DNA of 64,000 nucleotides from the NCBI GenBank assembly GCA_965652925.1, contig CBFGXL010000001.1:23821-87820 (forward strand), in the 5' to 3' direction. Under the pieces are notes generated by a model. The model saw only the letters and a list, made by a program, of their open reading frames with translations. It was not told where the DNA came from and did no database searches. Shown piece after piece: positions 54,317 through 57,203 of this stretch. Every line of letters starts with the position of its first letter. Within the stretch, counting starts at the first letter, position 1. Source of the stretch: an uncultured bacterium. GTDB lineage: Bacteria; Patescibacteriota; Minisyncoccia; Phycocordibacterales; UBA918. The translations under genes were made by a program, and so were the position numbers.

Positions 54317-54552
54317 TATAGACATACGATTATTGTGTTGTACAAAACAGATTTTGTAAGCTCATCTGTAAGGAAGCTACTGCTTCAGCGTCACAATAAG
54401 TGTATGCAGTATCACGAGCACAATACTAAAACCCCCCTTCCTCTCTACCTCATCAATATGGCTGTGCTCTGTTTAATGCGCACCACGTGGGCATATGCTC
54501 TTTGCTCTAGCCGAGATTCCGTTTCTCCCCGGTAATCTGTAAATCTCAAGAA

Positions 54553-54876
54553 ATGAAACCTCGGCTGGATCAAAGTCGGGGTATTTTGTACGAAAACCAG
54601 CATGAGCTCTTTTTCATGGAGGATTATATGCTCGCTGAGGAAACGCGCCCTGTCGTGCAGGAAGCAGAAGTCAGCTTCTATGTCTACTTCATTTCACCCG
54701 AGGATTTCAGACTTGAAGAGTTCCTCGAACTGGTGAATGAACGCTACCCGCTCACCATTGCTCACAAGAGCAAAAGTGGCGTAACGACGGTCACTATGCG
54801 CCTCCGGCCTTCGCACCTGCGCCTGCTTGTAGCGATACTGCCCAAGCACGTGGGTATATCGTACGAGCCTGTCTGA
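54553..54876 (+). CDS. Hypothetical protein (107 aa)
   Basis: ORF followed by a hairpin terminator. No SD, no recognised family. Confidence 0.3.
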   Translation: MKPRLDQSRGILYENQHELFFMEDYMLAEETRPVVQEAEVSFYVYFISPEDFRLEEFLELVNERYPLTIAHKSKSGVTTVTMRLRPSHLRLLVAILPKHVGISYEPV

Positions 54877-54918
54877 GCCTGCACATCACGTTAGTGTTGT
54901 GCAGGCTCTTCTCTATTT
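54875..54918 (+). terminator. Rho-independent terminator (GAGCCTGCACA...TGTGCAGGCTC plus TTCTCTATTT)
   Basis: 11-bp stem overlapping the stop codon of the upstream ORF. It lies between convergent genes. Confidence 0.55.
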
Positions 54919-57180
54919 GGCCACCGCAACAGCTTCCTCAAATTTAACTGATAGGAGTTTTGAGATACCATCGCCCCCCATTGTTACTCCGTAGAGGATA
55001 CCCGCACGACTCATGGTCTCGCGATTATGCGTGATAAGGATGAGTTGTGACTTCTCTGCAAGAGCTTCAATCATGTCACCGTAGCGGCGGGAATTTGCTT
55101 CATCAAGTGCTGCGTCTGTCTCATCGAGTATGATGAACAGAGGCGGATTGACCTGGCTCATGGCGAAAATGAGCGCAATGGATGTGAGCGCCCGTTCGCC
55201 GCCGGAAAGCATATCGAGTCCGCGCACCCGCTTATTGGGAAGTTTCACATCGAGCTCAATTCCTTCCTGTATAGACTCATCGTCCTCCTCAGGAAGCTCT
55301 TCCTCACCTTCCTCAAGCTCATCTTTCGATCTGCGGACCTTCGGCTTCACACGCAACAGTTTTGCCTCTCCTCCACCAAACATGAGAGCAAAAAAGCGGT
55401 TGAACTCGGCAGCTATTTTTTCTATTCCCGTAACAAATTCATTATTAAGCGAAATGGTAAGCTCAGCGATAAGCTCTTCAAGTTTTGTTATGGAAGTTTC
55501 AAGGTCAGCTATCTCGCGCACCAAAAAAGCATCACGCTCTTTAACCTCCTTGTATTCCTTTTCCACATCCTGATCAACGCCTCCGAGTTCCTCAAGGCGT
55601 ATCTTGAGCTTCTCAAGCTCCCTGCGTCGATCTTTCTGTATTTGCCTGTCTTCGTCCACGATCTCTTTATTGCTCACCGCTTTGCCATCTTTGAGTATTT
55701 CAAAGGTGAAATACTTTGAAGCACCGCTACCGATGAGCGCTACTGCTTCCTGCAGCTCGCGCTTGAACTCAGTGCGATCTCGATCAAGTGCTGAGAGCTC
55801 AGCCTCAATACGCGAAATGAGGTTTTCGCATTCGCGTTGCTCTCCTATGATACGGAAAACCTCACGTTCAGCATCCCGGCTTTCTGATTGTTCAGCCTCG
55901 ATTGACCGCCGCACTTCCTCATATTCTGTAGTGAGTGAAGCCTCCTCTTTTTCAATATGTACGATCTCTTTTTCGCAAACCCGCTGCTCTTCATACAGTT
56001 CCTGGAGTTCTTTCTCCTCCTCCTTCGTACTGACTGCAACCGAACCGGAGGCATGCTGCAAAAGCTTGCGCAACATATGCACCAGATCAGCAAAAGACCG
56101 GCGGAGGAAACTAACGTCCTCAACCGTACTCACCTTTTGTGCCGCCAGTTCAACAGCGTCAAGCACTTTCTTAAACTCACTTCCTGGTACAGGAGCAATA
56201 TCTTCCTGAGCAAGTTTTTCTTTCATCTGGGCAATACGGCGCTCCAAAAAAAGTACCTGCCCTTCAACAGAGCCGCTTTTACGCAGAAGTTCCTGCCGTT
56301 GTTTGCGTACTGCAGATATCTGTTCTTCCAAAGCCACCAGCGCCGTACTCTTCTCGTCATTTTCACTGGCAGCAAGGACAGTTTTCGCCTTCGCGAGTTC
56401 TTGTGTTAAGAGCTGTAGCCTATTTTCAGGTTCTTTCTTTTCCCCTGTAAGTCTATCGTGATGAGATGCGATATACGTGTCTTCGCGTTTGAGATATTCT
56501 GCGTAGAAATTGGTCAATTCCTGCCGCAGCTGCAATGCACGCTCGATCTTCTTTATTTGCCGCTCCAAAAACTGCAGATGCGGTGCGACCTCGCGACGCA
56601 ACGACTGCACACGCTCCACGTTCTCACGCGTCTTTTGCAGTTTTTTCTCCGCTTCGCTTTTTTTATATTGGTATACTTTGAGGCCCAGTGCATCTTCGAT
56701 CATTTCTCTGCGCTCCTGATTTGAAGCAGAAAGAATGCGGTCGGCTTCACCTTGCGAAATGATATGGTGGCCCGTTGAACCTATGTTTGCCGCTGACAAT
56801 AATTCCTGCACATCCTTCAGTCGTACCTTTGAGTTATTGATCGAATATTCATTGGTACCGTCGCGATTGACCGTACGTTCAATGAGGATCTCATCAAAGT
56901 CCATCTGGAACACGCGTTTTGTGTTATCAAGGACAACGCTCACCTGCGCGCGATTGCCGCGAGAGACGCTGTCAGAGCCGTTGAAGATGAGGTCTTCACC
57001 TTTCTTTCCGCGCATGGACTTGATTGACTGCTCCCCCAAGACAAACCGAAACGCCTCCGCAACATTCGATTTTCCTGAACCATTTGGACCAACTATTGCA
57101 GTAATAGGCGCACTAAATTCAAGCTCGCTTTTTTTTGCAAAAGATTTAAAGCCACTGATTGTAAGGTGTTTAAGATACAT
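54913..57180 (-). CDS. smc: SMC-family chromosome condensation ATPase, short form (755 aa) with no recognisable hinge
   Basis: N-terminal MYLKHLTISGFKSFAKK...IVGPNGSGKSNVAEAFRFVLGEQSIKSMRG (SMC head with Walker A). C-terminal LSGGERALTSIALIFAM, Walker B ILDETDAALD, and the H-loop. The middle ~500 aa are coiled-coil heptads with no G-rich hinge. Confidence 0.8.
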   Translation of the reverse strand: MYLKHLTISGFKSFAKKSELEFSAPITAIVGPNGSGKSNVAEAFRFVLGEQSIKSMRGKKGEDLIFNGSDSVSRGNRAQVSVVLDNTKRVFQMDFDEILIERTVNRDGTNEYSINNSKVRLKDVQELLSAANIGSTGHHIISQGEADRILSASNQERREMIEDALGLKVYQYKKSEAEKKLQKTRENVERVQSLRREVAPHLQFLERQIKKIERALQLRQELTNFYAEYLKREDTYIASHHDRLTGEKKEPENRLQLLTQELAKAKTVLAASENDEKSTALVALEEQISAVRKQRQELLRKSGSVEGQVLFLERRIAQMKEKLAQEDIAPVPGSEFKKVLDAVELAAQKVSTVEDVSFLRRSFADLVHMLRKLLQHASGSVAVSTKEEEKELQELYEEQRVCEKEIVHIEKEEASLTTEYEEVRRSIEAEQSESRDAEREVFRIIGEQRECENLISRIEAELSALDRDRTEFKRELQEAVALIGSGASKYFTFEILKDGKAVSNKEIVDEDRQIQKDRRRELEKLKIRLEELGGVDQDVEKEYKEVKERDAFLVREIADLETSITKLEELIAELTISLNNEFVTGIEKIAAEFNRFFALMFGGGEAKLLRVKPKVRRSKDELEEGEEELPEEDDESIQEGIELDVKLPNKRVRGLDMLSGGERALTSIALIFAMSQVNPPLFIILDETDAALDEANSRRYGDMIEALAEKSQLILITHNRETMSRAGILYGVTMGGDGISKLLSVKFEEAVAVAK

Positions 57181-57203
57181 CGATATGCTTACTACACTCA
57201 ACG

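What the first reader, a model, noticed from the sequence alone, without database searches (positions are those of the whole stretch)
54913..57180. Hinge-less miniature SMC
The head domains are unmistakably SMC (GFKSF, GPNGSGKSN, FRFVLGEQS, LSGGE, DE-Walker B, H-loop). The protein is only ~755 aa, and the central region is uninterrupted coiled-coil heptads with no glycine-rich hinge. Canonical bacterial SMC is ~1150-1200 aa with a ~150-aa hinge needed for dimerisation. This looks more like RecN/SbcC-style architecture with SMC-specific heads. Both flanking genes abut tightly, so it is not a truncation artefact.
Basis: partly seen in the sequence, partly recalled or inferred. Interest (0 to 1): 0.55.

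Follow-up and report, generated by a model that had tools for sequence, protein, structure and literature searches.

The report
Hinge-less half-length SMC of Patescibacteria
This gene encodes a real, conserved chromosome-organising SMC ATPase that has lost the hinge domain and half of its arms. This short form is the normal version across a large group of ultrasmall bacteria, and a few relatives carry a Rad50-style zinc hook at the same spot.

Summary
Window 54913-57180 (minus strand) encodes a 755-aa protein. Its two head halves are canonical bacterial Smc: B. subtilis Smc head E 1e-87, and TIGR02168 scores 538 bits, just under the 567 cut-off.

About 460-510 central positions of canonical Smc are missing, namely the hinge and the distal halves of both arm strands. 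No hinge was found by Pfam, by PDB sequence search or by profile-profile comparison. Hinge-containing positive controls scored E 1e-30.

The predicted arm is about 160-178 aa per strand, roughly half of canonical. It ends in a helix-turn-helix cap of about 58 aa (residues 328-385).

It is not an artefact. Every hit shown in four searches, about 500 clusters down to about 30% identity, lacks the hinge. Named lineages include Paceibacteria, Azam-, Uhr-, Moran-, Magasanik- and Komeilibacteria.

The gene sits in the conserved rnc-smc housekeeping locus, so it is the positional orthologue of smc.

Six related clusters replace the cap exactly with C-x-x-C-[G/A/K]-Q, a Rad50/SbcC-like zinc hook. This argues that the tip is a swappable dimerisation module.

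Prior art is one 2025 paper on a "hinge-less" oceanic SMC clade assigned to Actinomycetes. I found nothing on this radiation.

Presence of ScpA/ScpB and dimerisation through the cap could not be tested.

The parts
54913..57180 (-). Complete CDS of the hinge-less SMC (755 aa plus stop codon)
   Evidence: ORF list and sequence. Pfam SMC_N spans residues 2-740. TIGR02168 scores 537.8 bits.
56680..57180 (-). N-terminal half of the ATPase head (residues 1-167). It includes Walker A GPNGSGKS (57067-57090), the conserved Arg57 and the Q-loop Gln143.
   Evidence: Aligns residue for residue with B. subtilis Smc head 5xg3. These residues are invariant in the deep family alignments.
56200..56679 (-). N-terminal arm strand (residues 168-327): a strongly conserved neck (168-235), then a variable coiled coil with a break at 272-275
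   Evidence: AlphaFold helices 168-271 and 276-327. Conservation profile. Maps to TIGR02168 positions 1-320.
56260..56283 (-). R-x-x-G-R-[IL]-E-G motif (residues 300-307), specific to the hinge-less family; role unknown
   Evidence: G303, E306 and G307 are invariant or nearly invariant in the close family and in the family consensus. Five of the six zinc-hook relatives keep the motif. It is absent at the aligned position of canonical SMCs.
56026..56199 (-). Tip cap that stands where the hinge should be (residues 328-385): loop, helix 333-351, turn 352-355, helix 356-377, loop
   Evidence: AlphaFold model, pLDDT about 70-84. Heptad-spaced hydrophobic stripes, richer than in the adjacent arm segments. 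Region 290-418 is 126-131 aa long in 108 of 110 diverse members. No similarity to the hinge. Replaced by CxxC in six relatives.
55378..56025 (-). C-terminal arm strand (residues 386-601): break at 430-432, joint at 492-511 (55648-55707), and a conserved neck
   Evidence: AlphaFold helices 386-429, 433-491, 512-532 and 537-601. Best Foldseek match is the Smc head with coiled coil and joint, 5XEI. Maps to TIGR02168 positions 811 onward.
54916..55377 (-). C-terminal half of the head (residues 602-755): signature LSGGE (55195-55209), Walker B ILDETD (55114-55131), H-loop His718
   Evidence: Alignment to 5xg3. These residues are invariant in the family.
55273..55347 (-). Disordered acidic insertion in the C-terminal head half (residues 612-636), absent from B. 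subtilis Smc and variable in length across the family
   Evidence: Gap of about 20 residues in the 5xg3 alignment. pLDDT below 50 at 616-636. Gap profile.
58747..59466 (-). rnc (RNase III), the conserved upstream partner of smc and the marker of positional orthology
   Evidence: Pfam Ribonuclease_3 plus dsrm. The same order is seen in L001, L002, L004, L028 and L086. An rnc signature lies upstream of 27 of 56 canonical smc loci.

Best explanation
This is the organism's orthologous smc gene, encoding a working but drastically shortened condensin ATPase.

Shown:
- It keeps a complete ABC-type SMC head, the head-proximal neck and the joint.
- It lacks about 460-510 central positions of canonical Smc: the hinge and the distal halves of both arm strands.
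- What remains is an arm of about 160-178 residues per strand. That is about 24-26 nm by my own estimate at about 0.15 nm per residue, against the ~47 nm reported for canonical Smc.
- The arm is capped by a helix-turn-helix module of about 58 residues.

Inferred:
- Two protomers are held together at the tip by their caps, for example as a four-helix bundle.
- The heads engage on ATP and bind a kleisin at the conserved neck. The complex would therefore entrap and move along DNA like Smc-ScpAB, with a ring about half the usual size.
- The tip is a swappable dimerisation module. Some relatives carry a Rad50-type CxxC zinc hook exactly where this protein has the cap.
For: **Heads are Smc.** B. subtilis Smc head 5xg3 matches at E 1e-87 over residues 1-208 and 524-750. 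TIGR02168 scores 538 bits, against Rad50 54 and RecN 51. Foldseek best hits are Smc head plus coiled coil plus joint, 5XEI at E 1e-29. Catalytic residues are invariant over relatives down to about 40% identity.

**Deletion is mapped.** Query 2-325 aligns to TIGR02168 positions 1-320, and query 353-746 to positions 811-1180. hhalign against 48 canonical SMCs skips canonical positions 394-850.

**The form is real and under selection.** All 120, 150, 120 and 120 best hits of four searches are hinge-less. Region 290-418 keeps its length to within a few residues while its sequence diverges.

**Positional orthology.** The order DnaE, RNase HII, L32, NusB/Nudix, RNase III, SMC, RNase R, S16, KH, TrmD, RpoB, RpoC is kept in the window and, at about 50% identity, on contigs of 0.6-1.0 Mb. 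An rnc signature lies directly upstream of 27 of 56 canonical smc genes.

**The tip is a dimerisation module.** Six clusters (P0135, P0169, P0176, P0183, P0189, P0192; 47-56% identical to the query) replace residues about 329-385 with C-x-x-C-[GAK]-Q, for example SCPVCGQLV. No other of 489 complete members has CxxC in the central 40% of the protein. P0169 lies in the same locus and scores 540 bits on TIGR02168 against 65 on Rad50.

**Cap properties.** The cap helices carry heptad hydrophobic stripes and are more hydrophobic than the flanking arm.

**Experimental precedent.** In B. subtilis the hinge can be replaced by the Rad50 zinc hook, and shortened arms work only at discrete lengths. Natural arm-length modes are 238, 341 and 515 aa, with a possible minor mode at 163 aa (PMC5344682). 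Hook and hinge are also reported as interchangeable in PMC6969161.
Against: - Dimerisation through the cap was not modelled or measured.
- The cap sequence is poorly conserved across the wider family.
- No ScpA or ScpB gene was found in the 64-kb window, in the ±10 kb around four related loci, or in the flanks of distant loci. Whole genomes could not be searched.
- A second, canonical smc elsewhere in these genomes cannot be formally excluded.
- In B. subtilis, arms shorter than about 253 aa were not reported as functional.
Confidence: 0.65

Rival explanations
1. The protein does not dimerise at the tip. It acts as a head-only, ATP-dependent dimer, like RecF or an ABC clamp. The short arm would serve as a lever or as a docking site for other factors, and no closed SMC ring would form.
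For: Cap residues are poorly conserved across the wider family. No dimer evidence could be obtained. No kleisin gene was seen nearby.
Against: Relatives put a CxxC zinc hook, a dedicated dimerisation motif, exactly at this position. The length of the tip region is tightly conserved. The cap helices have hydrophobic stripes beyond what the adjacent arm shows. From general knowledge, all characterised long-armed SMC-like ATPases (Smc, MukB, Rad50/SbcC, RecN) dimerise at the tip.
Confidence: 0.17
2. It is a specialised SMC-like paralogue for repair or defence, in the manner of RecN, SbcC or Lamassu/Wadjet ATPases. The true hinge-containing smc would lie elsewhere in the genome.
For: Its architecture resembles RecN and SbcC. 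It falls below the TIGR02168 cut-off (537.8 against 567.35). NCBI's pipeline often names relatives only 'AAA family ATPase'. Whole genomes were not searchable.
Against: It occupies the canonical rnc-smc position inside a ribosomal/RNA-polymerase housekeeping block on every contig examined. No nuclease, Mre11/SbcD or defence partner is adjacent. Head similarity to Smc is about ten times higher in bits than to Rad50 or RecN. None of the hits shown in the four searches is a hinge-containing form close to this family.
Confidence: 0.08
3. It is an assembly or annotation artefact, or a decaying pseudogene: an internal deletion of a normal smc.
For: Single MAG-derived sequences can carry deletions. 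One relative, L026, is frameshifted, and one database entry, P0250, is a chimera.
Against: The same architecture and length occur in about 500 independent clusters from NCBI, JGI, ENA and Logan assemblies, down to about 30% identity. All catalytic motifs are intact and invariant. The reading frame is open with a conserved C-terminus.
Confidence: 0.01

Closest known systems
Canonical bacterial Smc of Smc-ScpAB (B. subtilis Smc; NCBIfam TIGR02168 SMC_prok_B)
   Same: The head halves align residue for residue: Walker A, Arg57, Q-loop, LSGGE, Walker B, H-loop. The neck and joint are shared, and so is the rnc-smc gene position.
   Different: There is no hinge (PF06470). About 460-510 central positions are missing. 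The arm is about 160-178 aa per strand against about 344. The head carries an extra acidic loop. The score falls just below the curated cut-off.
Engineered B. subtilis Mini-Smc and Smc(Zh), with the hinge replaced by the P. furiosus Rad50 zinc hook (Bürmann et al. 2017, PMC5344682); hook/hinge swaps (Tatebe et al. 2020, PMC6969161)
   Same: Smc heads sit on a shortened arm with a non-hinge dimeriser. The zinc-hook relatives found here (P0169 and others) are natural counterparts of Smc(Zh). The arm length falls near the minor natural mode of 163 aa reported there.
   Different: This form is natural and lineage-wide, not engineered. The window protein uses a helical cap rather than a hook. Its arm is shorter than the shortest functional B. 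subtilis construct reported (about 253 aa).
"Hinge-less" SMC clade from ocean metagenomes (Sussfeld et al. 2025, Environ Microbiome, PMC12153180)
   Same: SMC-type heads, an antiparallel coiled coil, no hinge and no CxxC. That paper also interprets them as divergent SMCs rather than Rad50/SbcC.
   Different: That clade is assigned to Actinomycetes and branches near actinobacterial seed sequences. The paper has no CPR/Patescibacteria link and no analysis of arm length, tip, synteny or zinc-hook variants. Whether the two clades are related could not be tested, because no sequences were available.
Rad50 / SbcC
   Same: Head, antiparallel arm and minimal tip dimeriser. Six relatives of the window protein carry a CxxC-[G/A/K]-Q tip like the Rad50 CPVCG hook.
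   Different: The window protein has no Cys at the tip. The heads are Smc-type (Rad50 profiles 54 bits against a cut-off of 700 or more). No Mre11/SbcD gene is adjacent.
RecN
   Same: A short SMC-like ATPase without a hinge. From general knowledge, it dimerises through the tip of its coiled coil.
   Different: TIGR00634 scores only 51 bits against a cut-off of 408. The head subtype, arm length and genomic context all differ.

Membership tests
Bacterial SMC (TIGR02168 / Smc-ScpAB) | Bipartite ABC-type head with Walker A, Q-loop, signature LSGGE, Walker B and H-loop of the Smc subtype | tested here: met
   SMC_N E 2e-65. 5xg3 E 1e-87 with a residue-level alignment. Foldseek matches to 5XEI and 5XG3.
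Bacterial SMC (TIGR02168 / Smc-ScpAB) | Central hinge dimerisation domain (Pfam PF06470) | tested here: not met
   No hit at E<=10. Not among the families hit by 62 relatives. None in 18 further relatives, while controls scored about 1e-30. No PDB hinge match. hhalign gives probability <=21% and only on arm regions.
Bacterial SMC (TIGR02168 / Smc-ScpAB) | Long antiparallel coiled-coil arm (main natural modes 238, 341 and 515 aa) | tested here: not met
   The arm is about 160-178 aa per strand. This lies near the possible minor mode of 163 aa in PMC5344682.
Bacterial SMC (TIGR02168 / Smc-ScpAB) | Score at or above the curated equivalog cut-off | tested here: not met
   537.8 bits against a cut-off of 567.35. 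The shortfall is explained by the missing 490 profile positions.
Bacterial SMC (TIGR02168 / Smc-ScpAB) | Kleisin ScpA and ScpB partners encoded in the genome | not testable with these tools
   Not in the window or in any held flank.
Bacterial SMC (TIGR02168 / Smc-ScpAB) | Conserved position downstream of rnc (supportive rather than defining) | tested here: met
   Seen in the window and in L001, L002, L004, L028 and L086. 27 of 56 canonical smc loci show the same adjacency.
Rad50 / SbcC | CxxC zinc hook at the coiled-coil tip | tested here: not met
   The window protein has no CxxC and no Cys in the cap. The feature is met in six relatives.
Rad50 / SbcC | Profile membership and an adjacent Mre11/SbcD nuclease gene | tested here: not met
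   Rad50 profiles score 36-54 bits against cut-offs of 700-1087. No nuclease partner lies in the locus.
RecN | TIGR00634 profile membership | tested here: not met
   51 bits against a cut-off of 407.85.
Hinge-less oceanic SMC clade (Sussfeld et al. 2025) | SMC heads, no hinge, no CxxC | tested here: met
   compared with the description read.
Hinge-less oceanic SMC clade (Sussfeld et al. 2025) | Membership of the same monophyletic, Actinomycetes-assigned cluster | not testable with these tools
   No sequences or lengths are in the text or held supplements. The named relatives found here are all Patescibacteria.

The most novel reading that the evidence does not exclude
A whole bacterial radiation runs chromosome organisation with an SMC that needs neither the hinge fold nor, possibly, the canonical closed tripartite ring. 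Either the short arms are joined only by a minimal, fast-evolving helical cap (or a zinc hook), or the protein works with no tip dimerisation and no ScpAB at all. The second case would be a mode of SMC action not yet described.
Probability: 0.15. Interest if true: 0.9.

Novelty: new variant of a known kind. Interest (0 to 1): 0.68.

Why it matters
The hinge is treated as a defining and functionally important part of SMC proteins, serving dimerisation, DNA binding and possibly DNA entry. Engineering in B. subtilis suggested that only dimerisation and a "tuned" arm length matter.

Here nature appears to have done that experiment across a large, ultrasmall-celled radiation:
- The hinge is gone.
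- The arm is cut to roughly half, close to a length class predicted by the periodic arm-length rule.
- The tip carries either a small helical cap or a zinc hook.

This gives SMC researchers a minimal natural SMC of about 750 aa for structural and single-molecule work. It offers a natural test of the arm-length periodicity and of what the hinge is needed for. It also raises the question of whether arm length scales with cell or nucleoid size.

On the practical side, it explains why annotation pipelines label these genes only "AAA family ATPase".

Tried and rejected
- **Cryptic hinge: rejected.** Tested by Pfam at E<=10, PDB phmmer of residues 200-533, Pfam on 62, 8 and 10 relatives with positive controls, and hhalign of the tip profile against 48 canonical SMCs.
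- **Truncation, frameshift or artefact: rejected.** Length and synteny are conserved on independent contigs.
- **Long relative P0250 (1005 aa).** It turned out to be a chimera of residues 1-344 with unrelated sequence.
- **L026.** It looked like an alternative genetic code but is a simple frameshift.
- **Homodimer modelling.** The structure tool gives no coordinates, so cap packing (extended hairpin or fold-back bundle) could not be inspected.
- **afdb50 fold search.** The library was unavailable.
- **ScpA/ScpB.** Pfam and NCBIfam were run on 30 window ORFs and on 10 neighbours in distant loci. Gene tables of L001-L004 were checked. A ScpB-motif regex was run over all held DNA. All were negative. 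This is uninformative, because scpAB is usually not next to smc and whole genomes could not be read.
- **Fold-back bundle idea.** I considered that the conserved GR.EG motif packs against a folded-back cap. This is weakened because zinc-hook relatives, which lack the cap, keep the motif.
- **Literature.** Searches for a hinge-less SMC in CPR/Patescibacteria found nothing. Only the oceanic Actinomycetes-assigned clade turned up.
- **RNA genes.** Rfam and tRNA scans of the window found none.
Full report
**1. The observation**

The minus strand of window 54913-57180 holds an open reading frame of 755 codons from ATG 57180. An in-frame TTG at 57201 would add 7 codons, but homologues start at MYLK. 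Pfam finds SMC_N spanning residues 2-740 (E 2e-65) and nothing for the hinge family even at E<=10. NCBIfam's bacterial SMC equivalog TIGR02168 scores 537.8 bits, just below its 567.35 cut-off. Rad50 and RecN models score about 50 bits. The best solved-structure match is the B. subtilis Smc head (5xg3, E 1e-87), aligned over residues 1-208 and 524-750. The only difference there is an acidic insertion of about 20 residues at 612-636.

**2. Anatomy**

An AlphaFold model built on 86 homologues (mean pLDDT 81.7) gives the following layout:

| Residues | Element |
|---|---|
| 1-167 | N-terminal head half |
| 168-271, 276-327 | arm helices, N-terminal strand |
| 328-332 | loop |
| 333-351 | cap helix 1 |
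| 352-355 | turn |
| 356-377 | cap helix 2 |
| 378-385 | loop |
| 386-429, 433-491 | arm helices, C-terminal strand |
| 492-511 | joint-like break |
| 512-532, 537-601 | arm helices up to the head |
| 602-755 | C-terminal head half |

Foldseek against the PDB returns Smc head plus coiled coil plus joint structures first (5XEI, E 1e-29).

Mapping onto TIGR02168 places residues 2-325 on profile positions 1-320 and residues 353-746 on positions 811-1180. The protein is therefore a canonical Smc minus about 460-510 central positions, namely the hinge and the hinge-proximal halves of both arm strands. A cap of about 58 residues closes the arm. The arm is about 160 residues on the N-terminal strand and about 178 on the C-terminal strand, roughly half the 344 aa of B. 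subtilis Smc.

**3. No cryptic hinge**

- The middle region alone (residues 200-533) finds no hinge chain in the PDB at E<=10.
- Across 62 diverse relatives, SMC_hinge is not among the families hit.
- Eight distant relatives (31-45% identity) and ten more from other lineages have none at E<=0.01. Two canonical SMCs in the run scored E about 1e-30.
- hhalign of the tip profile (residues 290-420, 108 sequences) against the canonical alignment gives only low-probability (<=21%) matches to arm segments, never to the hinge.

**4. Real and widespread**

All hits shown by the searches are hinge-less:

| Search | Hits shown | Identity to query | Length |
|---|---|---|---|
| Single-sequence search | 120 | 68-100% | 753-767 aa (one is a 702-aa partial) |
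| 1.84 billion cluster representatives | 150 | 40-65% | nearly all 690-782 aa |
| Profile search A2 | 120 | about 50% | 739-793 aa |
| Profile search A6, built from distant short forms | 120 | not measured against the window protein | 733-898 aa, plus two of about 1050 aa |

The one long entry (P0250) is a chimera.

Names attached by the sources are Candidatus Paceibacteria/Paceibacterota, Parcubacteria, Minisyncoccia, Azambacteria, Uhrbacteria, Moranbacteria, Magasanikbacteria, Komeilibacteria and "Patescibacteria group". NCBI's pipeline usually calls them "AAA family ATPase".

The heads and about 70 residues of neck on each strand are strongly conserved. The distal arm and cap are not conserved in sequence. 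Their length is: region 290-418 is 126-131 aa in 108 of 110 diverse members.

**5. Orthology**

The window and contigs of 0.6-1.0 Mb carrying relatives at about 50-70% identity share one gene order: DnaE, RNase HII, L32, NusB-Nudix, RNase III, SMC, RNase R (opposite strand), S16, KH, TrmD, RpoB, RpoC. In the window, two pilin-like ORFs are inserted between rnc and smc. In L004, rnc abuts smc directly.

Among the canonical smc loci fetched from unrelated phyla, 27 of 56 have an RNase III signature immediately upstream on the same strand. The short gene therefore occupies the classical rnc-smc position. This argues against a repair or defence paralogue.

**6. The tip**

Both cap helices carry heptad-spaced hydrophobic positions. 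They are more hydrophobic than the flanking arm segments: 26-36% conserved large-hydrophobic positions against 5-15%.

Scanning all 489 complete family members for CxxC in the central 40% of the protein found exactly six, all at the tip. They are P0135, P0169, P0176, P0183, P0189 and P0192, of 663-719 aa and 47-56% identical to the query. In the alignment, C-x-x-C-[G/A/K]-Q (for example SCPVCGQLV) replaces query residues about 329-385 precisely, and the arm on both sides stays homologous.

P0169 is encoded in the same locus: NusB/Nudix, RNase III, SMC, RNase R, S16, KH, TrmD, RpoB (L085, L086). It scores 540 bits on TIGR02168 against 65 on Rad50. These proteins look like natural Smc-zinc-hook hybrids. 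Because the zinc hook is a dedicated dimerisation device, its exact substitution for the cap is the best available evidence that the cap also dimerises the arms. That step is inference.

**7. How it most likely works**

Shown: intact Smc-type ATPase heads, conserved neck and joint, a half-length arm, no hinge, a small helical cap, and positional orthology.

Inferred: homodimerisation through the caps, ATP-driven head engagement, and kleisin binding at the conserved neck. Together these would give an Smc-ScpAB-like ring or rod about half the usual length that loads on and moves along the chromosome.

Experiments in B. subtilis make this plausible. The hinge can be replaced by the Rad50 zinc hook, and the arm tolerates shortening only at discrete lengths. 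Natural arm lengths cluster at 238, 341 and 515 aa, with a possible minor mode at 163 aa (PMC5344682). That survey required a hinge match, so hinge-less proteins were excluded by design. The 160-178-aa arm found here sits at that minor mode. PMC6969161 also reports hook and hinge as interchangeable.

**8. Prior knowledge**

Full-text searches found nothing on a hinge-less SMC in CPR/Patescibacteria. One 2025 paper (PMC12153180) reports an abundant "hinge-less" SMC clade in ocean metagenomes. It assigns the clade to Actinomycetes and describes no CxxC, no mechanism, and no analysis of arm, tip or synteny. Whether that clade is related to this one could not be tested. I therefore rate this a new variant of a known kind rather than categorically new.

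**9. Limits**

- ScpA and ScpB were not found in any sequence held. Whole genomes could not be read, so their presence, and the absence of a second smc, remain open.
- Two features are unexplained. One is the conserved R..GR[IL]EG motif at residues 300-307, which is kept in most zinc-hook relatives and absent from canonical SMCs. The other is the disordered acidic loop in the C-terminal head half.

Noticed in passing
Relatives P0135, P0169, P0176, P0183, P0189, P0192; L085 987-3095 and L086 6429-8537: These look like natural Smc proteins with a Rad50/SbcC-like C-x-x-C-[G/A/K]-Q tip in place of the helical cap. P0169 lies in the same rnc...smc...rnr-rpsP-trmD-rpoB locus. The three tested (P0135, P0169, P0183) score 540-561 bits on the bacterial SMC model. 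I found no description of a natural zinc-hook Smc in the papers searched.
   Followed up: partly
window 57204-58052 (-) and 58075-58563 (-): Two prepilin-type (GspG/ComG-like N-terminus) ORFs are inserted between rnc and smc. The larger one ends in about 20 Tyr/Gly/Ser/Gln/Thr-rich hexapeptide repeats (GQSGYY, SQSGYY, TQTSYY). The insertion is absent in L004.
   Followed up: partly
window 56260-56283 (-), residues 300-307: The motif R-x-x-G-R-[IL]-E-G lies in the N-terminal arm strand about 25 residues before the tip. It is nearly invariant in the close relatives and is the family consensus among hinge-less SMCs, including five of the six zinc-hook ones. It is absent at the aligned position of canonical SMCs. 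Its role is unknown.
   Followed up: partly
window 55273-55347 (-), residues 612-636: A disordered, acidic loop of variable length is inserted in the C-terminal head half relative to B. subtilis Smc (pLDDT below 50).
   Followed up: no
window 59510-60415 (-); also L001, L002, L004, L028, L086: A NusB-NUDIX fusion protein is conserved immediately upstream of rnc throughout the clade.
   Followed up: no
Proteins P0391-P0510: Hinge-less SMCs of other Patescibacteria fall into length classes of about 733-800, 865-898 and 1050 aa. The extra residues lie in the distal arm and tip region. This hints at discrete arm-length steps even without a hinge.
   Followed up: partly
L017, L018, L052, L046: Contigs labelled Bdellovibrionales and Gammaproteobacteria carry Patescibacteria-type short smc. 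One labelled Nanoarchaeota matches over the N-terminal head only, with an rnc signature upstream. These are probably mislabelled or mis-binned MAGs. 'Candidatus Saccharibacteria' labels on several close relatives also look unreliable.
   Followed up: no
L026 3001-5270; protein P0250: One marine MAG has the short smc frameshifted after about 80 codons. One database protein of 1005 aa is a chimera of short-SMC residues 1-344 with unrelated sequence.
   Followed up: yes
window 1-64000: The whole 64-kb window has no tRNA gene and no Rfam family at gathering threshold.
   Followed up: yes
window 54317-54912: A gap of about 600 nt lies between the smc stop and the convergent RNase R gene. It contains only a 107-aa ORF (54553-54876, +) with no family match. 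Related loci have different small ORFs here.
   Followed up: partly
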